Below, piece after piece: positions 2-46,855 of a stretch of DNA of 64,000 bases. The notes beneath the pieces were generated by a model. That model did no database searches and was not told the origin of the DNA. It saw only the letters and a list, made by a program, of their open reading frames with translations. The stretch lies in NCBI GenBank assembly GCA_964016885.1, contig OZ024743.1, positions 285,944,001 to 286,008,000 on the forward strand, read 5' to 3'. The position numbers and the translations under genes are program-made. The first letter of the stretch is position 1; each line of letters opens with the position of its first letter. Source of the stretch: Eledone cirrhosa. Lineage: Eukaryota.

Positions 2-379
2 CAAACTACAATTGCATGGCGTTGTGAAGTGGAGGGTTGCAAAGGACGGTTGAGTACCTCATTTGAATACGAAAAGGATAGAAATTGCACTGAGAAAGGA
101 ATACACTCGCATGCTCCCAAATCTGCTAAAGCTGGCATGGAAAAAGTTAAAGAAAAAGTCTGCAAACCTGCTGTAACAACGCATGAACCACCCAGAGGTA
201 TACTCCAAGATGCCATTGCTGGTTTACCAAACAAACTTGCAGCAAAGATAGGATCAGGAGCAAAATTAAAGCGTACCATATCTAGGAGGCGAAGAGCTAT
301 GAGGAACTACCCTCCACCCTCTCAATCAGCTGCATCCATCGTTATTCCTGAATCCCTGCGGTCTATTTTCACGGGCTAG
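2..379 (+). CDS. FLYWCH zinc-finger ORF of Mutator/MULE transposase type, 5'-incomplete; candidate first coding exon of BTB gene copy 1
   Basis: Frame is open from base 2: QTTIAWRCEVEGCKGRLST...GIHSH (W-R-C-x4-C...H-x-H), followed by a MULE-like linker LKRTISRRRR...YPPP...IVIPESL. No catalytic domain follows. CpGs are retained only to about 430. Confidence 0.7.
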   Translation, partial: QTTIAWRCEVEGCKGRLSTSFEYEKDRNCTEKGIHSHAPKSAKAGMEKVKEKVCKPAVTTHEPPRGILQDAIAGLPNKLAAKIGSGAKLKRTISRRRRAMRNYPPPSQSAASIVIPESLRSIFTG

Positions 380-3128: not shown

Positions 3129-6100
3129 GTTCTAATGAATATGACAAGATTCTTGAAACTCCATCTGAGCTCTATACATCTAATCAGCTTCCGGTAAAAA
3201 TTATTAAAATTTCTCATTTTCGCCCAGCTGGCTATGACAATAAGATCTCATTTAACTGGGAGTGGAAGACAAATAATGAACTGTAGACGATGATGGGAAG
3301 GAAACCAGTGATGAATGTTGTGAAAAGAAATGGAATGAGATGGTTGGGTCATGTCTTCAAGAAGAGTGAAATGAATGTGGAAGGAAATAGAAGGGGAGTA
3401 CCAAGAGAGACATGGCTAAAATGATGGAGGATAAAGAAAACCAGGGATTGGTGAGGTGTGGATGCAGACAATAGGGGGAAATAGAGAAGCTTGTCATGAG
3501 TTCATCAAGGCTAATCTCTGTTTTAGAAAAGATGGTCTTGAAACATTTGTATTTCCCCTAGCTCATATTAATTTTATTGGGATTTACTTTGAATGTCCAT
3601 GCCTTTCCCAATGGCATCAGCACAAAATAAACTAATGTTATTGAATATTAAATCTGATTGCCCTATACAATTGACTAAGGTGATTTTTTTTTTTTTCAAA
3701 AGGAGCTAGCAAAATATTTTAGAATTGCTAGTACACAATAAGTAAAAGTAGGAAATGCTTTCTGTACATAGGCTACATCCATTATAACGAGAGAAAAAGA
3801 ATTGATACTGATAGAGTTTTAATTGATTTTGTAAGATGTGTTGGAGCTTAGGAATTATCACTACCAACCTTGAATATACTTTTCAAATCTAATTTGTATA
3901 TATTATTCTTTGTAGGTAAAATCACAAGTGATTAAATCAGCCCATCAACAAAATCCCTCTTCATATTCTTTAAATAAATCTTCAGATGTGGAACATCGGA
4001 GGAAAAGTCTTTCTTCTTCAACATCTAAAATCATCAATAGCCTTTCAGATACAAACCAGTCCCAATCGTTTCCGACACCTGCAAAAGTTCCTAAAAAACA
4101 CAGTTTCTCTAAACCGTACGTAATTTCATCAGTTTTATAACTAATTCTTTAGTTTAAATCTCCTCTCTCCTTCTCTACATTTCTAGTTTCTATACTATTA
4201 TGCTATTAGAAAGTATTGTAGATGAGTAGAAGTTATTAAGTTGTTTTCTTCATGTCTAAATGAGTGATAATTTGTATCTTCTGTCATTATAGTGAGATGT
4301 GTTTCTGAACAAGACAATTAACACAATGACTCCACTACTTCACTAAATATTTGATAATAACAACAACACTAATACTTACAAATAGCAATTGTTGTAAAGA
4401 TGTTCTCCAGGAAACTGAGTTCATGATCAGTTTCAATTTGATTTTTTTCTATTCTCTTAAACTGATGTTCATGGCAAAGGTATCAGTATTGTACATCTAT
4501 AATCATAGGCTTCTGCCTACCTGAAGTCAACAAGCAATATTCCAGTATACCAAATGATGATATTAGCTGTTTGGATGTTCTCATTTTCAGCATTTTATTG
4601 TATATATAGTATTAAGAGGGATCCTCCATTAGCCTCAGTGTGGAGTATTCCAGTTGCTAATCAACATACTATATATTCATTGAATTATTGTGTGAGTGGT
4701 TGGGTATTCCATAGATAAGTTCTCTTAATGTAATACCCAAACAGAATCATCACAACTCAGTATATGGTATAATGCTGGCTATTTGAATTTCGAGTACAAG
4801 TTATAATATCTGTCTCAAAACTGATCTGTTTTACAATCTAGCACGAGTAAGATGGTTTCTATGAGAGCAATTATCATTATGGCTATGCCTATAATGCTAG
4901 CCACTCATCAGTGAATTCACGTGGACCCTTTAGTCAACCCACCAACTGTAGCAGAGTGAAATTTCTACTTACATACATGCAGAAACACTACACAGATGGT
5001 ATAATTTTTGGACTAGAAATAATTTCTATTTAGAGTTTATCCAAAATTCTCATACGATTCTCTTTGCTTTTTATAAAATATTTTTTGTGATAGGTATTAA
5101 AAATTATAAAAAGTGAAGTAATTTGATTTTGTCTACTTCTATTTGTTTTATTCATTTTTAATTCCATGAATTTTTTTTTTTTTTTTAAATCTTTTTTTTT
5201 TTCAGTTTTATTTCCCTTGGTCAATCTCATGTTTTGGAGAAACCAGCTACAGTTTCATCTTTCACTAATGATACTAGATCCCAGCCTATAGATTGCTCTA
5301 GTAGCTCTTCCAAAAATCACAGTTTTACTTCAAAAAATATTCAGAAACTATCAGCTGCTTCTAAATCAGAGAAACAGATGCGAATCAGTCCACCTATTGA
5401 TGTATCACCCCAAAAAGAGAAACGTATGCTTGTAGTACCAAACCATCAGTCATCTGTCATGTCTAACATGTCGTCCTTGTGGAAAGCCGGTCGGTTGTGT
5501 GATGCTTATATCAGCAATGGTGCAGTTAGTGTTATGGTAAGTTTGCGTTGTGACTGATTTTATAGTTTTAAATTTTTTTGTATGCAATAATCATAGGATG
5601 AAATTACTGAACAATGAAATATTTGTTTATTAGACTTTATTGCTTATTGCAGTGTACGGTATCAGTTTACAACTGGGTTAAATAGGCAACTCGTAAGAAA
5701 CAGTACACCAGTAGCAGCATACAAAACAATCATTTTGTTAGGAGACTAAATTAACTTAATTTGATACAGCTGCCTTAAGAATTCATTTTAAATTCAACTA
5801 GTTTGATATTGTTTTTTTTTGAATTTCCCAATATATTTTCTTAAAGTATGTAAGTGGTTCAGGAAAACATTCCAATAGCAAAAAATTATTTTTGCTCTAC
5901 AAAGTACCGTCAGTGGTGGAAAGTGGCACAAGTTAATCCAATGACCCACTCTTAGGTAAGAATTTTTAACATAAACAGGGTTCTACAATTTAGAAAAAGA
6001 TATAGTTGATTATATCAACCTTTGAAGTTGACTTCAGCTAGATTTTAATTCAAAATATAAAGGAATGTGACCAAATATCACAATACATTTTATGATACTC

Positions 6101-7260
6101 CACCTTCTAATAGCACATGTGATACCTGAAATTAAGACAAAAAGAATTAAATGGGAAATGTGCTTCTTGAAAAGATTTTTTTTTTTTTCTGTAACTAAAT
6201 TAGGGGAAGAAATTAGAATTAGTCAATCTTTACTTTTCAATCTATTAATTTTATTGATTTTCATTTGCAGGTTCATCAAATTGTTTTTGGAGCTGTTTGT
6301 CCCAAAGTGTTGCCTGTATTTTACAATAGTTTTCCTTCCGATTTACCAACAGTAACATTCCCTTCTACAGTCAGTGAAGAAGCTCTATTAGCTTTTTGTG
6401 AATACATGTACGATGGTGTGCTGGAACTAGATAAAAATATCCTGTCTCAATTGAAAATTATTGCCAAGTGTCTTGATATGCAGGGTTTTGATCAACTCTG
6501 TAACAACCAGCTAAAATTTGCAGAAAATTCAGTAACAGTGCCATCAGATATGTTGGAGTCAATACTTGCTGAGCCTTGCTCTTCATCAGGACTTATCTCA
6601 GACAGTAGTACAAATACACAAATTGCATGCCAAGATAATTTCATCCCTGTTTCTCAAATAATTCCACACAAACTTATCAATCAATACAAGCGTAATCTTG
6701 AGGAAAGTTCCAGTGGACTTTCACACAAATTTCCAACAGAGATAAAAAGGAAATCAGTGAAACAGGAATTTTGTGATACCAACATTGAAGATGGTGATGT
6801 TAACAGTAACCATGACGATAACTTAATTAACAAACCACAGATTAAAGTAGAACTGATTGGTCCAGATGATCATCGATATGGATACCAGGATATTTTTTCC
6901 ACACAACAGGGTTCAGACCCTTCTGATGCTGATATAACTCAGTCAAGCTTGCTTTCTCATAATACAGCCCTGGATAGCTTTGAGCAGAGTATGGACATAC
7001 AGCAGGCTGAACAATCTTTACAATCATCTTCATCCCTCTCTCCTCTTTATTCTCTTCACTCAGAATCTCATCCAGTTGGCTACCTAACTCCTACATCAGT
7101 TCGTAGACTAGTAAGTTGTGATAAATTCCAAAATAGGAAAAACTCTGAAAATCCTAAGCCTTATCCTGTTAGTTTCTTCAGTGCAAATGATGAGCCAATA
7201 TCTTTATCTTCATCCAATCTACAGTTAGCATATGTCAAAAAAAAGCATATGGCTAGATGA
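3129..7260 (+). CDS. BTB/POZ-domain protein, tandem copy 1 (exons 3129-3193, 3916-4115, 5206-5536, 6271-7260; 5' exon upstream)
   Basis: All introns are GT-AG with matching phases (1-0-2-0). The spliced product contains NHQSSVMSNMSSLWKAGRLCDAYI...VM|VHQIVFGAVCP...VSEEALLAFCEYMYDGVLEL...LKIIAKCLDMQGFDQLC, a canonical BTB fold. Every exon is conserved in copy 2. Confidence 0.88.
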
Positions 7261-15959: not shown

Positions 15960-16460
15960 AATTTGTAGAGGATGGTCAGTATTTTGTGAGTAATATTTTT
16001 CAGTCATTCTGGAAAATTTCAATTGTTCTCTCAATAGGGGGTTGAAAATCCCTTATTGTTTGTTATCATGGAGTCTAATTGTGCTGAAGTACTGACTGCT
16101 CCATGAGGAAACTAACACTGGAATTTGCTGGGAAATGTAATAACAAGCACAACACACTTTCTTTTTTACAGTACTGAAATCTCAATATCTTGTCATATCT
16201 GTAATTGGTACACACTCTAATTACCCTTCACCTCTTAATTTAATTACAAAACTATCCTATCCAATTACTACTGAATAAAGATACTATGCAATATCCCTAA
16301 TCACTAATTCATAATCCTTCAAGTCATCTTCATGCTCGGTATCCAAGATTAATTCACAGTATAGGTGAAAAAATGGCCTACAACACCTAAAGAAAAAAAT
16401 CGAATTTCTGCACCCCACAGAGTGCAACAAGTTCTTCCAAGTTACAGACCCTTCTGGTAA
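15960..16460 (-). pseudogene. Decayed casein kinase II beta-like relic, copy 1
   Basis: PFFHLYCELILDTEHEDDLKDYELVIRDIA*YLYSVV aligns by eye to CK2beta [21 protein letters not shown]...LIEQAAEMLYGLI; downstream TIRLHDNKQ*GIFNP resembles MVKLYCPKCMDVYTP. Stops present, no introns. Confidence 0.45.
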
Positions 16461-17019
16461 AAAAAAAGCTACAGTAAATGTAGTGGCATTACAGTGTCTC
16501 GCTTCCAAGAGCAACTTTTGCCGATTATGAATCTGTCATTATTTCTTCCAACATCTCAGAGTTCGTAGAAAACATTAACAATCACCTAATCTTACACTTA
16601 GGTTAAAAACAATTCGTTTGGAGCCGGTACATCTGAAACTATTAAGTGTTTCCCCCCTCTTTCGAAGACTGTGATTTGACTGCTATTTCTAGCAGCTCGG
16701 TTGACTATCTAGTAGAGTTGGCTCTTATTTTTAGTCAAGAGTGATTTTATTTACAGGCCGAAAGTATTCGATAATGGATATAACCTCGTAATGGATATAA
16801 TCTACTGTATAAAAAGTAAAAAAAAAAATAAAAATCCGATATATTGAGTTACGTCCCTTCACCCATTCGTTCTTATTGATTCGTCGTCGACCTACTATTG
16901 AAATTTGAATATTTTTGCACACACCGAACAAATTGTAGTTTTGTTTTGGTTTTGCGAAATTTCTATTTTGTACCCAAAAGTAAAGGTTACCCATTTGTTA
17001 CTGTGATTTTATGTAAATT

Positions 17020-17542
17020 ATGGAAAACAAAGCGAAAAAAAGGCGACAGTTTTTGTTACAGGAAAAGTTGGAAATTCTGAAAGCCGTTGATTCTGGAAAA
17101 AAAAAGAAAGACATTGCGTTACTGTTTAACATTACTCCGTCGACATTGTCCACGATTGTTAAGAATCAGTCTAAAGTTAAAGAGAAATCTAAAGAGGCAA
17201 ATTTTGGTCCACAACGAAAACGCCTAAGGGCTGCGATGTTCGAAGATATTGACGAGGCAGTTTTTGTGTGGTTTACAAACCAAAGAGAACAAAATATGCC
17301 AATTAGTGGTCCGCTTATTCAAGAGAAAGCTTTGGATACGGCCAAACTTTTGGGTCACTCGGATTTTCAGGCCAGTGTCGGATGGCTGAATCGATTTCGT
17401 CATCGATTCGGGATAACATCCCGAGGGATCTGTGCTGAAGAAGCTGATGTTCCAATAGAAAAGCTGATTCGGTGGAAAGAAGCAGAAATAAAAAATATTA
17501 TTTCTTACAGCAAAGAAGGCATATTTAATGCAGATGAGACGG
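17020..17542 (+). CDS. Tigger/TIGD-type transposase N-terminus (HTH-psq/CENP-B_N + HTH_Tnp_Tc5); candidate alternative first exon A of BTB copy 2 (unspliced ORF runs to 17655)
   Basis: KRRQFLLQEKLEILKAVDSG...PSTLSTIVKN...DIDEAVFVWF...PISGPLIQEKA...FQASVGWLNRFRHRFGI...IFNADETG. Homology ends at the first catalytic Asp motif, where a phase-1 donor ACGG|GTATTT lies. Confidence 0.85.
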
Positions 17543-17859
17543 GTATTTTTATTCATTTAAATTTAATCATTAATCATTTAAATTCAATATTCCAAATTTC
17601 AAATGAAAGAAAATTATTCAAAAGAACATATCTGAAACACACACACTCACATTAATAGATACATATATATAATTATTATAACATAAAATACATTACTAAA
17701 AAATAATTGTAAGTTGTTTTTTTTTTGTGGAGGGTTTACGCAAGTTTATAATATGACAGAAAACAAACAAAGGAAACATATTTGAAATATTTATATTTTA
17801 TTGCATGATAGTCATACTGCAGGTATGTTTTCATTCATTTAAACAAACGCTCAATTTGT

Positions 17860-17945
17860 TTCGGTCGATCTCGTTATAAAGAATTTTTCGTTACAACGAA
17901 TTATTTTTTATACCCCGTGAATTTCGTTATAACGGAATTTCACTG
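17860..17945. repeat. Right terminal inverted repeat remnant of the Tigger-like element
   Basis: Three tcgtta(t/c)aa motifs ending ...tttcgttataacggaatttcactg; the reverse complement starts CAGTG as in pogo/Tigger TIRs. Confidence 0.6.
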
Positions 17946-18894
17946 TGTCGTAAAATCACTTAACCTTTAACTCTATAAAATACATCAACAATGCTGGTAT
18001 AGGCACTGCCTCCGTCCCTCACTATTTTAAGAAAATGGGGTCCACTTGCTGGCCACCCGGCGGACAGAATAGAGAAGGCGTTTCCCCGGGGAATGGTGAG
18101 GGTGACGCTTTGAAAAAGTAAAATTTATATAGTTCATGACTTTCGAATGAGCAACGTTAGAGATGTCTAGTGGCTTAGAGGTGTGATAACTTCGTAACTT
18201 CTATATACACGATCTCTTTCACCATATATTCATGAGTCGCATACTTTTAATAGGTAGTACTAAGCAACTGAATCAATAGAAAGCCCGAGCGCAAGTAGGT
18301 AGCAACGAGACGGTCAGCCAACCTGCTAGAAACAACAGCTAAATCTTTTAGATCATACCATATAATATACCTGAAAAGATACATGGTTTTTGACAGGAAC
18401 ACTTTTGGTAATAGGCCAGCAGAGCTATCCTGAGGTTAAAATACACCACTGTACCTTAAGTGGGTGTCCTACTAGTTGTAGAGGTGATCACTACATAATT
18501 TTGTCAAATAAATTGTGTTTTTAAATAGTTATTTGTCTCTTAATTCACCGGTGTGTTGCTGTTTTGAAAGATATTGAATCATTTCGGTAGCTGAACAAGA
18601 TTAAGTATTAACTATCGAAGTGGGAAGAATATAATAATTATCGTATAAGACGATATCTATAGCTGGGGCGAAATGCGCATACAGGGAGTTATTTTACACA
18701 CTAGGCATAAAATGTATATTTTTTTAAAACTTGGAAAAAATTATACAAATGATGGTCGAGCTTTCGAAGTTAATGTTTGTGGATCAAAGAAAACTCATGG
18801 CGCTTGCGCGAGATTATCGGTTCGTTATCTTGGTGTCACATGCGTTGTGACTGTTGTTGTTTTCTATAATTTTACTATTTTATAAAGGTACATC

Positions 18895-19375
18895 ATGGCG
18901 CCAACACTTACACGAAGGAAATATGAAGCTGGGTTTAAGTTGAATGTTATAGCATATGCAAAGAAGCATAATAACCGTGCTGCTGCGCGTGAGTATGGTG
19001 TAACGGAGAAAGTAGTAAGAGACTGGAGATTAAAAGAAGAAATATTAAAGAATATCCCCAAGAGCAAATGTGCAATGAGAAGGGGTAGTGCACACTGGCC
19101 GAATTTAGAGAATTATTTAGCAGATATAGTTTGTGAGTATCGACAAAATGGATATGGTTTATCAAGAAGTAAAATCCGCATTATGGCACTCCAGTGGGCA
19201 AAAGAAAATCAAGAGTATTGTAAAGACTTCAAGGCCACCGCTTCATGGTGTCGTCGATTCATGGAGAGACATAATTTAGTATTGAGGCCGAAAACCAAAG
19301 TAGAGAAGAAATTACCGACAGAGCTTGACATCAGTATTTCTAATTCCCATCGTTGTATAATACTGCAACATAAAA
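18895..19375 (+). CDS. pogo/POGK-type transposase N-terminus (Brinker DBD + CENP-B-type HTH); candidate alternative first exon B of BTB copy 2 (unspliced ORF runs to 19422)
   Basis: RRKYEAGFKLNVIAYAKKHNNRAAAREYGVTEKVVRDWR...WPNLE...FKATASWCRRFMERHNLVLR...KLP; no DDE domain; good start context atcATGG; phase-1 donor AAAA|GTAATG. Confidence 0.85.
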
Positions 19376-20234
19376 GTAATGACCTTCTTTTATATCCCTT
19401 TGTTGTTTTCATTATTTTTTAGTAATTTCCTTCCTTCCTCTATCTTAATATATTTCGTACGAAATCTGGTATCTTATAAGTCAAGCATAGGATAAACATT
19501 CTGAGGGGAAATTTGTAAAGTCGAATTATATGCCTAGTCATAAATGTTTCGGTCGGTATATTATTACAGTCGGGATGTACATTCCTAGACGCCGCTATTT
19601 AAACTGTACAATGGCGATTTTTGTTACACTAAAGTTTAATACTTGTATAAAGGGTTGTTTAAAATCTGAGTGAATGTACTTATTCTGGATGCAAAAGAGC
19701 AATACTTTTTTTTTACTCTATTGATTTAACTAGACGAATCAAACGGGAAGGACTTTGTTAATTTTACTCTTCCAAGGAAGTCTAGCGTTTCTTGCAGGAG
19801 TTTGTTTTCTGTATTTTCACTCATAAAAAATTCCCTGAGAGGAATGAAATTTATGCAGATTTAGATGGCTTACTACGAGGTTTCTTGGTTGTTTTAATGA
19901 TAGGGACCTCACGAAAAAGAACTTAGTTTGGGACGAAATATATTTTCAAAACGACCTTGTTCTTTTTTAAAATATGCTCTGGATTGGAAAAAGTGTTAGA
20001 TAATTTGGTGTCATTTAATCAATTTATATCTATCACCCGGTCATCATTGACTAGAGGAATTTCGTATGAAGAAAATTATATTTCGTCTAATTCACCGTAT
20101 TCATTTGGAAGGCATCACACACACACACATGTGTGTGTATGTGCCGACGACTGAATCCAAACGTGTATATTACTGAATGAACCAGGAAGAGATATTTTCA
20201 TTTTCTTTATTTGAGATCTATTGTGAATCATATC

Positions 20235-20620
20235 CCTTCGTCGCCCAGCGTCGTGGGGGCAGGCTCCTCAAATACTCCTTTCAGCAGGTCCTGTCAGAAG
20301 CAACTGATGCGGCTGGATCCCAAGCGTGATGTTATCCAGCCATCTTGCTCTGGGTCTCTTAGCGGTTGGTTTTGCCTGTAAAATCTTTCCTGAGATATTC
20401 TAACCACATAACCGTAATATAGGAGCTGTGGTCTCTCAATTTGAAGAAGTAGCGGCTCTACTTAGATGATCTCTAGTTAGGCACTTTATCGACTAACTTT
20501 ACTCCAAATACCCTTCGGAGGAATCCCATTTCGGGCGCTTGTTTTCGTGATAGTATTCTTTTGGTTATTACCCAAGATTTATGACCATGGGAGGGTTGGC
20601 ACGAAAACCTAATTGAAGAT
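20235..20620 (-). mobile_element. RTE-like LINE 3' fragment
   Basis: Minus-strand translation GHKSWVITKRILSRKQAPEMGFLRRVFGVKLVDKVPN is typical of the post-RT region of RTE elements. Confidence 0.65.
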
Positions 20621-21257
20621 AGCGAGTTTGCTTTAGGGGAGTGAGGTGGGTGATGAATGTAGAGCAACAGAGAAGGCTCGAAAGAGCGGGGAGGTGAATG
20701 GCGTATCAATCAGAAAGAGGGAGACAAACAATAAATTGTAGAATATGATGGAAATAGTCACGAGTTGAAGAAGGATAAAAGTTACTGACTGAGTGAGCGG
20801 AGTGATGAAAATGAATGTGGAACGAAATAAAGAAAGAGGAAGACCATGGCTAAAGTTGATGAAGAAGGAAATGAAAGTGACATGTCTTTTTCGAAATATC
20901 CACATAACAAGAGTGACTCGTACAAGACATGGACGTGAAGCCTCTTGCAGAAAGTTATTGCCTATCATACTCCAAGTAATCAAATAGTGGTGATTAAGAC
21001 ACCCTTTGTCATGCAATTTTCGAAAGCATCTTATGTGAGTTCCAAGGAACAACTCTGTCTTGCACCTTACTCATCACTGTTGAATACAATTGAGGGACCC
21101 TGAAGTGTGATTAAGCCAATTTATTATCTAAATTGTAAGCAAGTGATCTAGGAAATATATTATTGAAATCTAAATGGAGAGATTAATAGATGAAAGTGTA
21201 ACAGCCATAGCACCTATTGAATCATTTTGACTGGAAGTGTTATTTCCATCACAGATT

Positions 21258-21680
21258 ATCATCATTATTTTATGTCCATTTTTTCATGCTTACATGGGTT
21301 AGGTGAGTCTTTTTTAACACAGCCTTCCTCCATACATTCCATTCCTTTATCTCCTCAGTGAGGTTCAGCATTTTGAGATCTGCTTTCGTCACTTCTGTTC
21401 AGGTCTTTGGTCTTCGTCTACTGCTTTCTTCCACAGATCTTTTGGCACTTTTTTAACCTACAATCATCATCCATAAGCATCACATGGCTATACTAATTTG
21501 ATTCCTCTTATATCCAGTTTTTCTCTCACCTCAGCCATGCTTTGCCATCCATGTGCATTAACACCACACATCCATAAAAGTATGCTCACTTCATTTCTCT
21601 CCAGCTTTCACATATCTTCTGCATTTACAGCCTATGTTTCATTTCCCTGTAACATTGCACTTCACATACAGGGATAATTC
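21258..21680 (-). mobile_element. Decayed RTE LINE 3' fragment
   Basis: (atc)n tail, catgcttacatgggtt 3' module, and similarity to 58533-59000. Confidence 0.65.
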
Positions 21681-23190
21681 CCATAATCTTTTGAAAGATA
21701 TTTTGACACTTGTTCAAGAACTGCTGCTCAGATTTAGACTTCAGTTTATAACTCGTTAGGTCAGACATTGGAAATAAGGTTTGATGACATTTTATTGTAG
21801 CAATTGATGATTAGATCCACCTACCTGTACAAGCACTGTTGACGATCAAATGGAGATATTGTAGGGTTTGAGAGGACCCTTCAGTCTTTATTAGCATATT
21901 ACAACTTCTCTAATGCTGGTACCATTATAAAATGCACCCAGTACATCATCCTGTAAAGTATTAGTGGTAGTGCAATGAAAAAGCACACATAGTACACCCT
22001 GTAATGTGGTTGGTGTTAGGAAAGATACCCAACAATAGAAACTATGCTAAATATGGAACATAATAAGCAAGATGGGTCACTCCAACCCATGCCAGCATTG
22101 GACATAAGTGATGAAAAAAGTTTTAAATATCTTATCTAGTTTTTCTTTTGATTCTATAGTAACCATTATTTAGGACTGACTTTTTTGAACTCTTATGATT
22201 CATAAAGACATTAACATTTACTTCTGTCTTTGGCTTTTCATCTAAAGTAACAAATGTCAAAGTCTTGAAACTATTACTTCAAACTGTTGGGTATATTTTA
22301 AAATTAAAACAGTTATGTGCTGTTATTATCTAATGTCAGTGAGCCTCCCTCACATAAAGCTCTTTATAATGAACTGTTAGTAATTAACATATGGTAATCA
22401 TAAGGAAGTTGAAGATCCATTGGGATTATGAAATTTTGAGAACAAAATGTTCCCTGTACACTCTAAGTGGTTGGTGTTAGGAAGGGCATCCAACCATAGA
22501 AACCATGCCAAAATGGAACATGAGAGCAAAACATTATCCTCTGATTTGTCTAGTCACAGATTGTGACATTCTGTCCAACCCATGCTAGCATGAAAAATAG
22601 ATGTGAAATGATGACTGATAATCATCATCATCATTGTTTAATGTCTATCTTCCACGCTAGCATGGGTTTAGACGGTTACCCATTCATATTTTTATTGCTG
22701 GTGCATTAAAATGCTCTCATTACATTCTGGAAAGTTGTTTGTGTGAAGAAGAGCATCCAACTATAGAAACCATGACAAAACTGGGACATGTGAAATGAGG
22801 CACCCAGCCTGTCTAAGAGAGCAGTAGCTCCAACCCATGTCAACATGAATACATGGAGGTAAAATGTGAATGATTGTTTCCTTAATTACAAAAGTAGAAG
22901 TTGGCCAACAACTTCATAATTGATACAAAGCATTACTCATTTTGACACTTCTGTTGCTGCTGCACTTCTAAATTATTCTCAAGGTTGATGAGATTGAGGA
23001 CAGTAAGATCAGTTTGCCAGACATGCCATATCACAAGTTCATAAGATTGCTCCACACTTTGTAGATAAACAAATTTTCCAAAACATCTATAGTATATATT
23101 CATATCCAAAAGGCTTACAGAACAAGTGTAGAATAGTAAATAATTATATGAAAACTGTAACAATGTAATGTCTATTTTTTTTCGTTTCAG

Positions 23191-26100
23191 GTTCTAATAT
23201 TTATGACAAGATTCTTGAAACCACATCTGAGCTCAATACATCTAATTCGTTATCGGTAAAAATTATTAAAATTTATCTTATTTTTACACACTATTGAGAA
23301 TTGCATTTGGCTATAAGAATAAGATCTCACCTAACTGACAAATTATTTAATCTTTATCTATAAAAACGAAAATGTCTGTCTGTATGCAGGCAATGCATTT
23401 TCAGTTTCCATCCAATTTTGTTCAAATTTGATATATAATTTAACTCCTGGAGCATGTCAACAAATAGTTTAAATCTTGCTCTCCCCTAAAATTGTAGAGT
23501 TCTGGGGCTCTTTAAGGGTAGCCATATTGAGGAGAGAGGAGTAGGGTGGGGTCTTTATTGACAGTGGAGGAAGACAGATGAGCTAGCAATGTTAGAAAAA
23601 TACAGACAGGGTGAGGCAGGTCTTTATTGACTGGTGAATGTAGAGGATGAGAGAAAACAAGACAGACAGAATATCAGTTCAAGTAGTAACTACAGCTATA
23701 GAGTAGCTATATAAAAGTGGCAGTGTTGGTGGAAGAAAGCCATGGTAGCAGTAAGAGTACAGACAACAGTGACAAGAGTAAGGCGTGTGACGTCATAAGA
23801 CATCTGCTGCAGTAATGTAATGGTAGAAAAATGTACAAGTTTCTAATTTGAGTTAAGTTTGATTTATTTCTGTCATTTAATGGCAGATTTATGACAATAA
23901 TTAAATATAAATTAACATGGAATCTCTACATTTTATTTTGTCTCTCTCGGAAAACTATTTCCATGTGAAAAGAAAGGTTTAATGTGTCGTCTGCTTTACA
24001 ACAATCAATACATTTATTGTGTAATGTTGAATACTTACAGCTTTTCTTCTACCTTAATTCGGTTATTCACTTTATTTTAATAAGGTGTACCCGGCAACAA
24101 CGGCGTTTTTTGCTAGTTATATATATATTTATGTATATATATATATTATTCATTGTAGGTCAAATCACAAGCCAATAAATCAGCCCATCAACAAACTCCT
24201 TCAGATGTGGAACATCGGCGGAAAAGTCTTTCTTCTTCAACATCTAAAATCATCAATAGCCTTTCAGATACAAACCAGTCCCAATCATTTCCAACACCTG
24301 CAAAAGTTCCTAAAAAACACAGTTTCTCTAAACCGTACGTAATTTCATCAGTTTTATAACTAATTCTTTAGTTTAAATCTCCTCTCTCCTTCTCTACATT
24401 TCTAGTTTCTATACTATTATGCTATTAGAAAGTATTGTAGATGAGTAGAAGTTATTAAGTTGTTTTCTTCATGTCTAAATGAGTGATAATTTGTATCTTC
24501 TGTCATTATAGTGAGATGTGTTTCTGAACAAGACAATTAACACAATGACTCCACTACTTCACTAAATATTTGATAATAATAACAACACTAATACTTACAA
24601 ATAGCAATTGTTGTAAAGATGTTCTCCAGGAAACTGAGTTCATGATCAGTTTCAATTTGATTTTTTCTATTCTCTTAAACTGATGATGTTCATGGCAAAG
24701 GTATCAGTATTGCACCTCTATAATCATAGGCTTCTGTCAACAAGCAATATTCCAGTATACCAAATGATGATGTTCCATCATATAGCAGGCTATGTTTAGG
24801 ACTGACTATACGAAGAGAGATGTGTTTTTGAACAAGCAGGTTTACTGTTTCCTTATTTGCTTTACTGATTAACTGTTGAGAATTTTCTTTTTTCAGGATT
24901 TTATTATAAATTAGTAAAATATGAAAAGGAGTGCTCTGTTTTAACATGGAGTATTCTAGTTGTTTAATCAACAAGCTATCTATTCATTGAATTATAATGT
25001 AAGTACCTGAGTGTACTACAAACACTTGTACTCTTAATGTAATCCTCCAGCAGAATCAACACAGTAATGCTGGCCCTTTGAATTACAATACAGTCCATTC
25101 CATATTTTCCATCCACCCAATTTCACTCAAGATTTGAGTTAACCCAAAACTAGTGTTACAGACACTTGGCTAAGATACTTAGAAAGCAATTTATTAATCA
25201 GCTCTGGATTTAACATATACACACTTAGACCAACAAGCAATGTCTCAAAGTATTCGTTCGTATAAATGCAATCCAATATTTATTTAGAACTATTTACTGA
25301 ATCAGTGAGACTTACTATATGAAGATCAGACTGTAGTGATACAGGTAATGACTTCTTGGCACTAATGAGATTAATCTAAAAGCAAGTATGATTAATTTAG
25401 AATATTGTTAGCATAATTATTACCGTTTGTTTTTATAACTTTTCAGTTATGAATTATATCTCATTTTGTGGTATAAATTTTTCAATACAAAATTATATCT
25501 ACCTTGAAGTGCTAACATCTCAAAATTATGTTTTTTTATTTCTACTTTCTTCAATAACTGCAATATATCAAATATATGCAATATACTGCAATATATCAAA
25601 TATATCTCGTTGATCTGCTGTCTTATTTATTATTACATATCTTGATACAACAAAATCTTTTTAAATGAGTTATAATTTCTATTTAGAGTTTATCAAATTT
25701 TCTCATCAGATTCTCTTTGCTATGTATTATTAAAATGTTTTTTGGATCGATGCAAAACATTAAAAGTAAAGTTGTTTGATTTTGTCCCACTTTGTTTTCG
25801 TTTTTAATTCAATAACATTTTTTTTTTTTAGTTTTATTTCCCTTGGTCAATCTCATGTTTTGGACAAACCAGCTACTGTTTCATCTTTGACTAATGATAC
25901 TAGATCCCAGTCTATAGAAGGCTCTAGTAGTTCTTCCAAAAATACTCAGAAACCACCAGCTGCTTCTAAATCTGAGAAACATATGCGAATCAGTCCAGCT
26001 ATTGATGCATCACCCCAAGAAGAAAAACGTATGCTTGTAGTACCAAACCATCAGTCATCTGTCATGTCTAACATGTCATTTCTAAGGAAAGCTGGTCGAT

Positions 26101-28867
26101 TATGTGATGCTTATATCACCAATGGTACAGTTAGTGTTATGGTAAGTTAGCATTCTGACTGTATATGTAGATTTTTATTATCTTATATGCAAGAATGACA
26201 GTATTTCTAACTCCGTAGTACTAGTTGGGTAAATTTAAAACTGATTGGTTTTACTTTTGTAGAAGTTATAAGATAATTGAAGCAAAGATGGGAATAACAA
26301 TGAGTGGAAGGATTCATGAAATGTGAAGACAATGTACTCTAAACATTGCAGTAATGTAATTGTTTCATGGTGTTGGTTGACCTTGGATCATTATTAAGTG
26401 GTTAATAATTGTTTCTACTTTTGGCACAAGGCCAGAAATTACCCAGTGCATTACCGGTACTTTATTTTATCGACCCCATAAGGATGAAAGGCAAAGTTAA
26501 CCTCGACGGGATTTGAACTCAGACCGTAAAGGGACGTAACTATGCTGGAAAGCATGGCGTCCAATACTACCAATTCACCACCCTCAGTGGTTAATAATTG
26601 TTTCTACTTTTGGCACAAGGCCAGAAATTACCCAGTACATTACTGGTACTTTATTTTATCGACCCCGTAAGGATGAAAGGCAAAGTTGACTTCGGCGGGA
26701 TTTGAACTCAGGATGGAAAGGGCCGTAACTCTATGCGTCAAAGCATGACGTCCGACCCTCTACCGATACTGCCATAATAATTGTTTCTACTTTAGGCACA
26801 AGGCCAGCAATGACCCAGTACATTACTGGTACTTTATTTTATCGACCCCGTAAGGATGAAAGGCAAAGTTAACCTCGGCGGGATTTGAACTCAGACTGTA
26901 AAGGGACGTAACTATGCTAGAAAGCATGGCGTCCGACCCTCTACCCATACTGCCATAATAATGGCAACTTGTTAGACCAGCCTGCTTCTTTCTAATGTAT
27001 TTCTACTGGTGGATGATATTCCTCCTGTTAAAAGATGGAACTGTTATGGAGACATAAACTTGCTATATACACTTGCAATAAAATCCTCATCAAACATCAA
27101 CTACATCATAAGTATTTTCAAGTGTATAAACATTCTATTCCAATACTGACAACAAATGATGGAGAACAGTGGGATCTTTCAGTAGTCAATAATTATGGGT
27201 TAAACATACTGAAGAACAAAAATATTTGCATATTAGGCTTTGCCATGTACTGTATCAGTTTACAGCAGGGTTAAATGGACAACTACAAAAAACAGCATAC
27301 AAAACTATCATAGGTGGAAAGATGAAGGTGATGGTGAGATGGAAAAAACAGGAAGAGTGTTGGCATGAAGGGATTATTAAATAGTGTGGTAGCTACATTT
27401 AAACTGTAAATTGTATATGGAGGGAGTTAGGGAATGGTATTAAGAGGGAAGGTGTGAAAATGATTTGTTACCTTGGAGAAGGTAGATTGAAATTGTTAAC
27501 AGAATCTAGAGTGGGTTGTATATGGAAGAAATTCTAGGATCTGATTGATATACTAATGAGAGAAATGTTGCTGAAACTGAAAGAAAAGGTGTATGCTATA
27601 TGTGTGAGAAGTGCTGTGATTTATGGTGGTTAGAAAGAACAGAAATGAGAATGGTCTGGTGGATAAGTGAAGTATTGCTGAGAGAGAAGACAAACAGTGA
27701 ATTACAGAGGGATAATGGGAATATAACCCGTGATGGATGTCATGAAGAGGAATGAGATGGTTGGGTCATATGTTGAAGGATGAAAATGAATGTGGAAGGA
27801 AGTAGAAGAGGAAAACCAAGAAAGACGGCTTTAAAATGCTTGTTTGTTGTAACTAAGTTAAGGGAAAAAATTGGAATTAATTAATCTTCGATTTTCATTT
27901 GCAGGTTCATCAAATTGTTTTTGGAGCTGTTTGTCCCAAAGTGTTGCCTATATTTTACAACTCTTTTCAATCTGCTTTACCTGCTGTAACATTCCCTTCC
28001 ACAGTCAGTGAAGAAGCACTATTAGCTTTTTGTGAATACATGTACGATGGTGTACTGGAACTAGATAAAAATATCCTGTCTCAATTGAAAATTATTGCCC
28101 AGTGTCTTGATATGCAGGGTTTTGATCAACTCTGTAACAACCAGCTAAAATTAACAGAAAATTCAGTATCAGTGCCATCAGATATGTCAATAGTTGAGCC
28201 TTGTTCTTCGTCAAGACTAATCTCAGACAGTAGTACAAACACACAAATTGCAAGCCAAGATAATTTCACCCCTGTTTCTCAAGTAATTCCTAACAAGCGT
28301 AATCTTGAGGAAAGTTCCAGTGAACTTTCACACAAATTTCCAACAGAGATAAAAAGGAAACTTATGGAACAAGAAATCTGTGATACCAACAATGAAGATG
28401 ATGATGCTAACAGTAACCATGAAGATAACTTAATTAACAAACCACAGATTAAAGTAGAATTGATTGGTCCAGATGATCATCGATATGGATACCAGGATAT
28501 TTTTTCCACACAACAGGGTTCAGACCCTTCTGATGCTGATATAACTCAGTCAAGCTTGCTTTCTCATAATACAGCTCTGGATAGCTTTGAGCAGAGTATG
28601 GTCATACAGCAGGCTGAACAAGCTTTACAATCATCTTCATCCCTCTCTCCTCATTATTCTCTTCACTCAGAATCTCATCCAGTTGGCTACCTAACTTCTA
28701 CATCAGTTCGTAGAATAGTAAGTTGTGATAAATTCCAAAATATGAAAATCTCAGAAAATCCAAAGCCTTATCCTGTTAATTTGTTCAGTGCAATCGGTGA
28801 GTCATTATCTTTATCTTCATCCAATGTACAGTTGGATGAAGATACAGATAGTGGCACTGTAACCTAG
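23191..28867 (+). CDS. BTB/POZ-domain protein, tandem copy 2 (exons 23191-23255, 24159-24334, 25832-26141, 27905-28867; first exon probably 17020-17542 and/or 18895-19375)
   Basis: Same exon phases as copy 1, GT-AG introns, intact BTB domain. Exon length differences versus copy 1 are multiples of 3 (24 and 21 nt in the middle exons). Confidence 0.88.
23351..24116 (+). mobile_element. Non-autonomous Helitron in an intron of BTB copy 2
   Basis: 5' a|TCtttatctataaaaacgaaaatgtctgtctgt; 3' cccggcaacaacggcg...tgCTAG|t; absent from the equivalent intron of copy 1. Confidence 0.7.
26403..26955 (-). mobile_element. Three head-to-tail tRNA-derived SINEs of about 180 bp each
   Basis: Units about 26403-26585, 26592-26773 and 26775-26955. 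On -, A-box-like tggcagtatcggtag, B box gagttcaaatccc, core ctttgcctttcatccttacggggtcgataaaataaagtacc, and (tta)n tail. Confidence 0.85.
27310..27835 (+). mobile_element. Old RTE LINE fragment in an intron
   Basis: Vestiges of LKGKVY..CVRSAVIYG, ERTEMRMV.W, RWLGH and RRGKPRKT; a similar piece lies at about 3270-3500. Confidence 0.6.
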
Positions 28868-45892: not shown

Positions 45893-46285
45893 TCATTGCA
45901 ACTCGTCCTTCTCAGAGATGCACTCTTGTTGTTCCTGTACTTTCCGCAGTTTGGAAAGAAGGACATCACCGAAAGTATTTTGGTATTCTGGACTAACATT
46001 GTCCAACAGGCTGTAGATGGTCTCAAAATGTTTGCCATTATTCTCATTATCAAGGCTATCGAAATCATGACCGACGATTTGAAAGCCTTCTGTAGAAAGT
46101 TCCACGCAATACTTTTGGTTTTCTTTCGTGCGTAGATTCAGATAGATTAAATTATCAGACGAGGGGAGGACATTTGACAGGTGTACACATTCTACAGCAT
46201 AAGCGATTTCATTTACAACAGACTCTGCCTCAATTTTTAGTGTATATTCATCGTCCTCGCACAAAGTGGAATCGGTGTCTGCCAT
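45893..46285 (-). CDS. GSKIP: GSK3-beta interaction protein (DUF727), 130 aa, intronless CDS
   Basis: EAESVVNEIAYAV...IYLNLRTKENQKYCVELSTEGFQIVG...FETIYSLLDNVSPEYQNTFGDVLLSKL matches GSKIP; ATG at 46285 in acaATGG context. Confidence 0.93.
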   Translation of the reverse strand: MADTDSTLCEDDEYTLKIEAESVVNEIAYAVECVHLSNVLPSSDNLIYLNLRTKENQKYCVELSTEGFQIVGHDFDSLDNENNGKHFETIYSLLDNVSPEYQNTFGDVLLSKLRKVQEQQECISEKDELQ

Positions 46286-46635
46286 TGTAACAGACAAGAT
46301 TGTTTTGGCGTTTTTAGAAATTGATAATTGAAGATACTTTTTAGTAAGATTTGGGCAAGTTTAGTAAAATCACAGGCTAGTAAAAGTTTGAAAAAGTCCT
46401 TGTCGAGTCAATAAAATTTCCAAGATTACAGAATTTGAAACTTTCCAAAGAATTATGACATAAAAAAATGAGACGTAAGAAAGTTAATAAAAGTATGAGA
46501 CAGCCTCAACACAAACAGATTTTTTTTCTGTCTGACTCAATGAATGTGTGACGTCATGTTTACATTTCTTACCCTCTTCCTGGCGGCATTAGCTATAACC
46601 ACCACCATTCTGGAGGACAGTGGAAAATTCTCACG
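46286..46635. promoter_or_regulatory. Probable bidirectional promoter between GSKIP and the THAP exon
   Basis: Divergent start codons 350 bp apart; TGACTCA at 46533-46539 and palindromic CRE TGACGTCA at 46549-46556; CpGs retained. Confidence 0.55.
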
Positions 46636-46855
46636 ATGGTTAATTTTTGTGCTGTTAATGGCTGTTCCAGTCGTGCAGATCGCGATAGAGCTAACTCATT
46701 TTACCGTTTGCCAGCCATCATTACTAATCAAGGAGAAGAAACTCGAGAAAGATCGCGAAAACGTCGCGAACAATGGATAGCTAATATTAATCGGCCAGAT
46801 TTGAAAGAGACCAGTTATGCATATGTCCGAGTGTGCTCAGATCATTTCATATCCG
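46636..46855 (+). CDS. THAP-domain first coding exon; remainder of gene not identified in the window
   Basis: MVNFCAVNGC...SFYRLP...RREQWIANINR...VRVCSDHFISG is a complete C2CH THAP signature; strong phase-1 donor CCG|GTAAGA. Confidence 0.88.

What the first reader, a model, noticed from the sequence alone, without database searches (positions are those of the whole stretch)
17020..28867. BTB scaffold with alternative first exons captured from two different pogo-superfamily transposases
Seen: the BTB copy-2 exon chain starts at a phase-1 acceptor (ttcag|GTTCT, 23191). Upstream on the same strand are two stop-free ATG-initiated ORFs encoding only transposase DNA-binding modules: Tigger CENP-B-type (17020) and POGK-type Brinker+HTH (18895). 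Each has a phase-1 GT donor about where homology ends (17542|GTATTT at NADETG; 19375|GTAATG). Joining either to exons 23191-23255, 24159-24334, 25832-26141 and 27905-28867 gives uninterrupted frames of 2037 nt (678 aa) and 1995 nt (664 aa). Most surrounding transposon relics carry stops or frameshifts; these two ORFs do not. Known: host-transposase fusion by exon capture (KRAB-POGK, SETMAR) and BTB genes with variable 3' DNA-binding exons (mod(mdg4), lola). Inference: the reverse design, with variable transposon-derived 5' DBD exons under separate promoters and a constant BTB multimerisation module. It could act as a combinatorial transcription factor/insulator or as a repressor binding the TIRs of the donor transposons. 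I do not know a description of this in cephalopods, but cannot verify novelty.
Basis: partly seen in the sequence, partly recalled or inferred. Interest (0 to 1): 0.92.

Follow-up and report, generated by a model that had tools for sequence, protein, structure and literature searches.

The report
Cephalopod genes with swappable transposon heads
In this octopus-type genome, a gene for a protein-pairing (BTB) module starts from alternative first exons that are DNA-binding pieces taken from different jumping genes, so one gene can make several different DNA-binding proteins, and one of these pieces appears to have been captured recently.

Summary
Both frames are open (678 and 664 aa). The POGK junction 19375>23191 appears in a transcript-like run and not in the DNA run laid beside it. 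The POGK exon is old: 83% identical to, and joined identically in, an Octopus vulgaris model. The Tigger exon is young: an internally deleted member of a multicopy family, dN/dS 0.78 like its dead siblings. The same gene has CG-1 and THAP heads upstream. A paralogous BTB region holds 20 same-strand Pfam-confirmed transposon-type ORFs against 0 of 45 antisense ORFs. Its O. bimaculoides orthologue has isoforms numbered to X36 sharing one C-terminus; 9 junctions fall exactly on donors I predicted. Most likely this is a coleoid family of dimerising ZBTB-type transcription factors with protocadherin-like arrays of transposon-derived first exons. DNA binding and function are untested. A 2023 paper lists several of these proteins under separate gene names; eight literature searches found no description of the array, and this scan had not reported it.

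The parts
16866..17946 (+). Tigger (pogo-family) DNA transposon remnant. Left TIR lost, DDE region deleted, right TIR kept at 17926-17946; present in copy 2 only.
   Evidence: Sibling alignments; copy-1 host sequence matches up to about 16859 and resumes at 18429; TIR 21-mer has 416 exact copies in G000, control 0
16911..17542 (+). Young alternative first exon. ATG at 17020, CENP-B_N + HTH_Tnp_Tc5, phase-1 donor after 17542.
   Evidence: Pfam; X4 contig of 662 nt matches 16911-17539 without a mismatch, then leaves the genome sequence; 662 = exon to 17542 + 30 nt; junction row itself not displayed
18662..19375 (+). Old alternative first exon. ATG at 18895, POGK-type Brinker DBD + HTH_Tnp_Tc5, phase-1 donor after 19375.
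   Evidence: Joint 19375>23191 GT..AG in X4 (depth 14.6), none in X1; 133 of 160 aa identical to O. vulgaris CAI9720209.1, which has the same fusion point
20909..21215 (+). Broken Tc1/IS630-type DDE relic, 40-44% similar to the intact Tc1 exon that Octopus models splice into this gene; orthology not shown
   Evidence: tblastn with P0013; stops and frameshifts
23191..23255 (+). First constant exon of BTB copy 2 (phase-1 acceptor); has no start codon of its own in the models
24159..24334 (+). Constant exon 2 (low-complexity linker)
   Evidence: joint 24334>25832 in X4, depth 25.3
25832..26141 (+). Constant exon 3; ends with the beta1/alpha1 N-terminal part of the BTB domain
27905..28867 (+). Constant exon 4: rest of BTB plus acidic/serine-rich tail and stop.
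3129..7260 (+). Constant chain of tandem copy 1 (exons 3129-3193, 3916-4115, 5206-5536, 6271-7260), open frame. Its CG-1, THAP and POGK heads lie 21.2, 11.2 and 2.6 kb upstream of the window.
2..376 (+). 3' part of an open FLYWCH/MULE-like ORF (ATG 76 nt upstream of the window); candidate further head for copy 1, weak phase-1 donor at 197; untested
   Evidence: this part alone gave no Pfam hit
46636..46855 (+). THAP first exon of the next BTB gene (gene B), head-to-head with GSKIP; phase-1 donor to a CG-1 exon beyond the window
   Evidence: 75 of 75 aa identical to O. vulgaris P0008 and 83% to cuttlefish-cluster P0007; Pfam THAP E 2e-12; donor

Best explanation
This is one member of a coleoid family of BTB genes built like a clustered-protocadherin locus, with DNA-binding heads. 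The constant exons (linker, ZBTB-type BTB, tail) begin at a splice acceptor and have no start of their own. Upstream lies a row of alternative first exons, each the 5' end of a different transposon gene with its own ATG. A DNA transposon that lands upstream in sense orientation and has a GT in the acceptor's phase becomes a new head. Because these transposases carry the DNA-binding module at the N-terminus (established knowledge), capture keeps DNA binding and usually drops the catalytic core. SHOWN: the frames; the POGK junction; phase and strand agreement; conservation of old heads; a young, immobilised Tigger copy transcribed and leaving the genomic sequence at its donor. INFERRED: the Tigger junction target (about 0.88); separate promoters (about 0.85); BTB dimers (model-supported); heterodimers between isoforms; function as sequence-specific transcription or chromatin regulators (about 0.7). 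The window shows two ages side by side: an old conserved head (POGK) and a recent capture not yet shown to be under selection (Tigger).
For: Junction 19375>23191 in X4, not in X1. The Tigger contig has exactly the length of exon-to-17542 + 30 nt, the same pattern as the POGK contig (744 = 714 + 30). There is no read-through depth past the donor (3.69 observed, 3.69 expected, 6.44 if unspliced). The acceptor-bin depth of 5.5 fits with a Tigger tail (5.49-5.56) and not without (4.78). O. vulgaris has four consecutive models of this gene with CG-1, THAP, Tc1/DDE and POGK heads. In gene A the THAP, both POGK and the Tigger best donors are phase 1, as is the donor of CG-1 exon 2, matching its acceptor. 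At C4:234.66-234.78 Mb the acceptor is phase 0 and 16 of 18 best donors are phase 0 (binomial 1.7e-6 under a 1/3 null). Nine of these predicted donors equal O. bimaculoides isoform junctions. In that 190 kb, 20 plus-strand ORFs have transposon-type domains against 0 of 45 minus-strand ORFs; a 200-kb control has 2 of 92. 18 of 21 distinct head starts among the 24 O. bimaculoides isoforms held map to G000 at 78-100% identity over their first residues. BTB homodimer model: ipSAE 0.83, best control 0.00, runs agree in at least 94% of contacts, pLDDT at least 89. The mark was reached by 21 of 30 solved homodimers and 0 of 23 single chains (microbes), and by 17 of 29 eukaryotic pairs but only 1 of 7 without an older solved relative, so the pass may reflect likeness to solved ZBTB dimers (run on orthologue P0001, BTB 93-95% identical). 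Best PDB match is ZBTB9.
Against: The Tigger joint row was among 84 rows not shown. The depth arithmetic fails in the next bin (7.84 expected, 11.1 seen). X4's library type is not on record; it is read as RNA because its share of words (0.42) equals the exonic fraction (0.419) and it holds GT..AG joints. It is one run of one study. Tigger dN/dS is 0.78 (6.5 syn, 19.5 non-syn), inside the range of dead siblings (0.53-0.89). The two POGK paralogues show dN/dS 1.34 (4 syn, 21 non-syn), so there is no sign of constraint since duplication or conversion. POGK identity to Octopus (83%) is only a little above the disordered linker (74-80%) and below BTB (93-95%). No DNA-binding, expression-pattern or phenotype data. 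The donor score is my own ad hoc rule, and the 18 ORFs were chosen by eye as head candidates.
Confidence: 0.75

Rival explanations
1. Transposon-trap defence. The locus mainly captures heads from invading DNA transposons so that head-BTB dimers bind the cognate TIRs and block or silence those elements. Old heads are leftovers or were later re-used for host genes.
For: The young Tigger head has at least 416 exact copies of its family's TIR 21-mer in the genome. Heads come from many unrelated element types: pogo, P/THAP, Mutator/FLYWCH, Crypton, Tc1 and STPR (element assignments partly recalled). A related Tc1 head (74% identity) sits at two different BTB loci.
Against: The POGK head has no close family left in G000 (2 tandem copies plus one 65% relative) yet stays open in two genera. 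Several heads are 95-100% identical across genera, which fits fixed host targets better than an arms race. No binding data.
Confidence: 0.25
2. For the Tigger exon only: neutral exonisation. A transposon remnant upstream of a strong acceptor is transcribed and spliced through a GT it already had, and the product has no selected role. This is compatible with the best explanation for the old heads.
For: dN/dS 0.78; GT present in all 5 near-full siblings; no counterpart among Octopus models or 25 protein hits (best 56% identity); P(open by chance) 0.05-0.31.
Against: It is the only open copy among the 6 near-full copies compared. Its contig depth (8.2) is of the same order as the POGK head (14.6), though contig depth is a poor measure of expression. 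The test has low power.
Confidence: 0.45
3. The proteins are Cullin-3 substrate adaptors that use the heads to bring ubiquitin ligase to DNA or to transposases, rather than transcription factors.
For: Two of nine PDB hits are Kelch-family BTBs (IVNS1ABP, KLHL3).
Against: No BACK or Kelch domain in any coleoid family member scanned. Six of nine PDB hits are ZBTB-family proteins. The model swaps an N-terminal strand (245-247 with 329-331) as ZBTB dimers do (PMC11426971 passages).
Confidence: 0.08
4. The isoforms arise by trans-splicing, as in mod(mdg4) and lola, or are gene-prediction chimeras.
For: Part of the paralogous array lies on a separate unplaced contig, C581. The O. vulgaris models' evidence base is unknown to me.
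Against: All heads are upstream and on the sense strand. C4 has an assembly gap at 234,660,713 and C581 ends with a copy of the next head. The O. bimaculoides heads lie on one scaffold and strand in the same order (PMC10027918 supplement rows). The POGK joint is in run contigs, not a prediction.
Confidence: 0.05

Closest known systems
KCTD1 isoform b (PMC3212892, passages read)
   Same: A Crypton copy inserted upstream of a BTB gene created a new transcript with an N-terminal DUF3504 and a C-terminal BTB. Three DUF3504-type heads occur in the paralogous array here.
   Different: One captured exon, once, on a gene whose short form stands alone; KCTD-type BTB (recalled). Here there are arrays of heads from many element types, with capture apparently continuing.
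Drosophila mod(mdg4) and lola (PMC11426971, passages read)
   Same: One BTB locus, 20-30 isoforms with different DNA-binding domains, including FLYWCH.
   Different: There the BTB is N-terminal, the variable parts are C-terminal, isoforms are made by trans-splicing and the BTB is TTK-type (reported absent from molluscs). Here the heads are N-terminal alternative first exons in cis and the BTB is central.
Vertebrate host-transposase fusions: KRAB-POGK, SETMAR, KRABINER (recalled; the paper was not held)
   Same: A transposase DNA-binding domain is spliced to a host regulatory domain.
   Different: Host domain first, transposase exon last, usually one transposase per gene (recalled). Here the transposon supplies the start and many heads share one host module.
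Clustered protocadherin alpha/gamma and UGT1A loci (recalled)
   Same: Tandem variable first exons, each spliced in cis to shared constant exons.
   Different: Their variable exons are duplicates of one ancestor and are not DNA-binding. Here many heads are unrelated transposon captures, with some local duplication of THAP heads, and small shared exons are nested inside the array.
Octopus 'CENPB-BTB' and 'THAP-BTB' factors of Mukherjee and Moroz 2023 (PMC10027918; passages and supplement rows read)
   Same: The same proteins: LOC106877732 appears in 11 rows of the supplement table.
   Different: They are listed under separate gene names (Thap1, Thap6, Thap7, Psq1 and others) and BTB is called transposon-derived. 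The words alternative, isoform and fusion do not occur in the main text, so the shared-constant-exon array is not described there.

Membership tests
Host-transposase fusion gene | Transposase-derived domain in frame with a host domain | tested here: met
Host-transposase fusion gene | Spliced transcript across the junction | tested here: met
   POGK joint displayed; Tigger joint inferred only
Host-transposase fusion gene | Orthologous and intact in other species (POGK head) | tested here: met
   O. vulgaris CAI9720209.1, 83% identity, same fusion point
Host-transposase fusion gene | Purifying selection on the captured exon | tested here: inconclusive
   Tigger 0.78, low power; POGK paralogues 1.34; no Octopus DNA available for a cross-species test
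Host-transposase fusion gene | Binds cognate transposon sequence and regulates transcription | not testable with these tools
   needs ChIP/EMSA
mod(mdg4)/lola-type locus | N-terminal BTB with variable C-terminal DNA-binding exons | tested here: not met
   order is reversed
mod(mdg4)/lola-type locus | TTK-type BTB with FxLRWN motif | tested here: not met
   family consensus at this position is KRxLVVxxHQ; motif definition from PMC11426971
mod(mdg4)/lola-type locus | Trans-splicing | tested here: inconclusive
   layout fits cis-splicing (0 of 45 antisense ORFs with a head domain), but trans-splicing cannot be excluded without phased reads
ZBTB-subtype BTB | N-terminal beta1 extension forming an intertwined homodimer | tested here: met
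   model score 0.83 vs best control 0.00; possibly by likeness to solved dimers; ZBTB9 best PDB hit, E 8e-5
ZBTB-subtype BTB | C-terminal C2H2 zinc-finger array | tested here: not met
   none in the constant chain of any coleoid member scanned
Protocadherin-like variable-first-exon locus | Tandem same-strand variable exons spliced to shared constant exons in one phase | tested here: met
Protocadherin-like variable-first-exon locus | Each variable exon has its own promoter | tested here: inconclusive
   both window contigs start with no upstream partner, but contigs cannot show start sites; some Octopus models chain two heads (P0002, P0004, P0008)
Protocadherin-like variable-first-exon locus | Cell-specific or stochastic promoter choice | not testable with these tools
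   needs single-cell 5' data

The most novel reading that the evidence does not exclude
Coleoid BTB loci are self-extending traps for transposon DNA-binding domains. Each new element that lands in sense and in phase becomes a testable new transcription factor. Promoter choice among dozens of heads plus BTB heterodimerisation gives a combinatorial, possibly cell-type-specific, DNA-binding code, and young heads also silence their donor family. This would be a cephalopod counterpart to vertebrate KRAB zinc-finger expansion, built by a different route.
Probability: 0.3. Interest if true: 0.95.

Novelty: new variant of a known kind. Interest (0 to 1): 0.84.

Why it matters
It shows a route to transcription-factor diversity that joins three things known separately: transposase capture, variable-first-exon arrays and BTB combinatorics. 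It would also change how octopus transcription factors are counted, since several catalogued THAP, CENP-B and Psq 'genes' are isoforms of one locus. The window holds an old head and a recent capture side by side, so the birth of a head can be studied directly: does a new head bind its donor's TIRs, and is it selected? Named RefSeq loci make single-cell and ChIP tests possible now.

Tried and rejected
Single-sequence AlphaFold2 of the O. vulgaris POGK-BTB protein: mean pLDDT 39, uninformative. A protein search with the Tigger ORF found no junction-spanning or orthologous protein: 25 hits, best 56% identity, lengths 95-305 only. No RNA holder is listed on record; X4 was treated as transcript-like on its own evidence. 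Reads were laid on 16000-26350 only, so copy 1, the upstream CG-1/THAP/FLYWCH heads and junction 26141>27905 were not tested. Whether upstream heads also splice to copy 2 was not seen, but 681 loose-end rows and 84 joint rows were hidden. The region C4:234.45-234.65 Mb did not hold the missing distal heads (one psq match only); most were on C581. Heads of X4/X7, X5 and X18 were not located. No cross-species dN/dS was possible. Rejected: that the Tigger donor was newly created (the GT is in all 5 siblings); that the Tigger ORF is single-copy; that openness of the ORF proves function. Papers PMC12111275, PMC7736800 and PMC10230085 (passages read) concern other BTB genes. Literature searches with no description of the array. 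Most subscription journals and bioRxiv supplements are outside the library, so absence from print is not proven. Look-ups of this scan's earlier notes gave one unrelated locus and nothing for this genome.
Full report
1. OBSERVATION. Pfam gives CENP-B_N + HTH_Tnp_Tc5 for 17020 and BrkDBD + HTH_Tnp_Tc5 for 18895. The window lies at G000:C4:285,944,001-286,008,000. The last exon is 79% identical to Octopus proteins, so this is an octopod other than those three species (inference).

2. TRANSCRIPT EVIDENCE. Four runs of one study hold the stretch, none on record as RNA. X4 holds 0.42 of the words, equal to the exonic fraction 0.419. I laid X4 and X1 (2 of the 4) on 16000-26350. X4 shows GT..AG joints 19375>23191 (depth 14.6) and 24334>25832 (25.3); X1 shows neither. 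The POGK contig is 744 nt: 18662-19375 plus 30 nt. A second contig of 662 nt matches 16911-17539 without a mismatch (the longest siblings are 84-89% identical, so it is from this locus) and then departs. Its length equals 16911-17542 plus 30 nt. The three trimmed bases resemble the CAG before 23191, the only one of the three chain acceptors in the laid stretch that has CAG. Depth falls to zero after the donor, and the acceptor bin fits only with this tail added. The joint row itself was among 84 not shown, and the same arithmetic misses in the next bin (7.84 vs 11.1). I therefore rate the Tigger junction as inferred (about 0.88). Both contigs begin at their first base with no upstream partner, as first exons would, but contigs cannot show start sites.

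3. TWO AGES. The POGK exon has only its tandem twin (93%) and one 65% relative in G000. O. vulgaris CAI9720209.1 carries the same head (133 of 160 aa) fused at the same point; what evidence that model rests on I do not know. Between the two paralogues dN/dS is 1.34 (4 syn, 21 non-syn; dS 0.043 against 0.158 for the constant chain), which suggests recent conversion or relaxation; BTB itself gives 0.20. The Tigger exon is absent from copy 1, whose host sequence matches on both sides. It lost its left TIR and about 1.1-1.4 kb including the DDE region, and kept the right TIR. Of 6 near-full copies compared, only this one lacks stops, yet its dN/dS (0.78) lies within that of the 5 dead ones (0.53-0.89). 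Its TIR 21-mer occurs 416 times exactly, control 0.

4. THE GENE HAS MORE HEADS. Upstream of copy 1 lie CG-1 (two exons), THAP and POGK exons, 83-93% identical to the heads of Octopus isoforms, plus two open FLYWCH-type ORFs. The THAP, POGK and Tigger donors and that of CG-1 exon 2 are phase 1, like the acceptor. O. vulgaris has four consecutive models of this gene (CG-1, THAP, Tc1/DDE, POGK); other Octopus models chain two heads. The next gene (THAP exon at 46636) has THAP+CG-1 and CENP-B heads, the latter two with phase-0 donors matching its phase-0 acceptor. Three further BTB copies are each preceded by an STPR ORF.

5. A LARGE ARRAY ELSEWHERE. G000 has at least 20 BTB-exon matches. In C4:234.66-234.85 Mb, 20 plus-strand ORFs hit CENP-B, THAP, DUF3504/QRICH1, Psq, Brinker, FLYWCH, Tc1-HTH or a zinc-finger family. 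For this count 27 ORFs were scanned and 27 of 58 filtered plus-strand ORFs; a few LINE-like ORFs were not scanned. All 45 filtered minus-strand ORFs were scanned and none hit such a family; 2 of 92 ORFs did in the adjacent 200 kb. Before seeing orthologues I scored donors for 18 hand-picked ORFs upstream of the first constant exon: 16 best donors were phase 0, the acceptor's phase. The O. bimaculoides orthologue LOC106877732 has RefSeq isoforms numbered to X36 (that such isoforms rest on RNA data is recalled). The 24 I hold share a 534-aa C-terminus and have 23 different starts, 21 of them heads. Nine heads end exactly on my predicted donors. One phase-1 exception splices to a small nested exon, so the array is tiered. 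Eighteen of the 21 heads map to G000 at 78-100% identity; six of them lie on unplaced contig C581, which probably fills a gap in C4. Supplement rows of PMC10027918 place nine of the O. bimaculoides heads on one scaffold and strand over 180 kb, in matching order where both are located. A second Octopus locus has three FLYWCH heads on a shared 577-aa tail. Cuttlefish-cluster proteins show THAP versus FLYWCH and THAP versus ZSWIM3_N heads on shared tails. A search of 1.84 billion representatives gave 48 hits. Of the clusters I looked up that carry names, all were Octopus, Argonauta or cuttlefish except one bird SLX4-type protein; most of the 48 were not looked up, so restriction to coleoids is likely, not shown.

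6. THE CONSTANT MODULE. The best solved relative is ZBTB9 (E 8e-5), and six of nine hits are ZBTB-family proteins. No BACK, Kelch or C2H2 array appears. A homodimer model of the orthologous BTB scores 0.83 against a best control of 0.00, with at least 94% contact agreement and pLDDT of at least 89. The mark was reached by 21 of 30 solved pairs and 0 of 23 single chains, but by only 1 of 7 eukaryotic pairs without an older solved relative, so the pass may show likeness only.

7. MECHANISM. A headless constant chain accepts any upstream, sense, in-phase donor. DNA transposons bring a promoter region, an ATG and an N-terminal DNA-binding module; deletion immobilises them; selection then keeps some. 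Shared BTB domains would let isoforms pair, giving dimers with two specificities. Capture and splicing are shown for POGK and near-shown for Tigger. Retention is shown by conservation. Dimerisation is modelled. DNA targets and regulatory role are inferred. The main open choice is host-gene regulation versus transposon silencing, and both may hold at different ages.

8. KNOWN VERSUS NEW. Single captures onto a BTB gene are known (KCTD1b, PMC3212892, passages). Multi-isoform BTB loci are known (mod(mdg4) and lola, PMC11426971, passages), with the opposite order and trans-splicing. Variable-first-exon arrays (protocadherins, UGT1A) and vertebrate host-transposase fusions are recalled, not read. 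PMC10027918 (passages, supplement rows) noted that Octopus THAP and CENP-B factors carry BTB and listed isoforms of LOC106877732 under separate gene names, without describing alternative exons. Eight searches found no description of the array; the library lacks most subscription journals. It works like a mirror-image mod(mdg4) but is not a member of that family. It meets the sequence criteria of a host-transposase fusion, with selection on the two window heads unresolved. Verdict: real, a new variant of a known kind, interest 0.84.

Noticed in passing
window 45896-46360 (-): Intact GSKIP-domain ORF (Pfam E 2e-33), head-to-head with the THAP first exon at 46636; possibly a shared bidirectional promoter.
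   Followed up: partly
window 24140-24774 vs 3897-4564: The two tandem copies are 92% identical over about 670 nt including intron, while other intron matches are 70-81%; suggests a gene-conversion tract. The POGK exons show similarly low divergence.
   Followed up: partly
window 24196-24219: The DNA run X1 has a contig here with a 24-nt insertion and two substitutions matching copy 1's exon; probably copy-1 sequence laid on copy 2.
   Followed up: no
L101:2711-3199 (C4:234,832,711): Tc1-type HTH ORF 74% identical to the N-terminus of the Tc1/DDE head that Octopus splices into the window's gene; a related element captured at, or moved between, two BTB loci.
   Followed up: partly
L025:1362-1871, L026:2859-3353, L027:8439-9080: STPR-repeat ORFs (Pfam E 2e-22 to 4e-14) before three downstream BTB copies; an O. 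vulgaris STPR-BTB model exists (P0061). A Helitron link for STPR is recalled, not tested.
   Followed up: partly
G000:C581 (L128-L136) and C4:234,660,713: Unplaced 87.7-kb contig holds the distal heads and ends with a frameshifted copy of the CENP-B head found just after a 200-N gap in C4; probably a misplaced piece.
   Followed up: partly
G000:C4:297.95-298.33 Mb, 312.38 Mb; C7, C10, C11, C21, C23: Further BTB-exon matches whose upstream regions were not examined for heads.
   Followed up: no
L114:1928-2434 and L115:7943-8134: Spin-doc zinc-finger ORF and a Psq ORF on the plus strand 90-110 kb upstream of the gap; may be strays or heads of another gene.
   Followed up: no
window 26397-26962: Three head-to-tail copies (period 183-189) of a common SINE-like repeat in the last intron.
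   Followed up: no
window 16753-16808: Short stretch bounded by inverted ends just upstream of the Tigger remnant and the transcript start; could be a small element or promoter feature.
   Followed up: no
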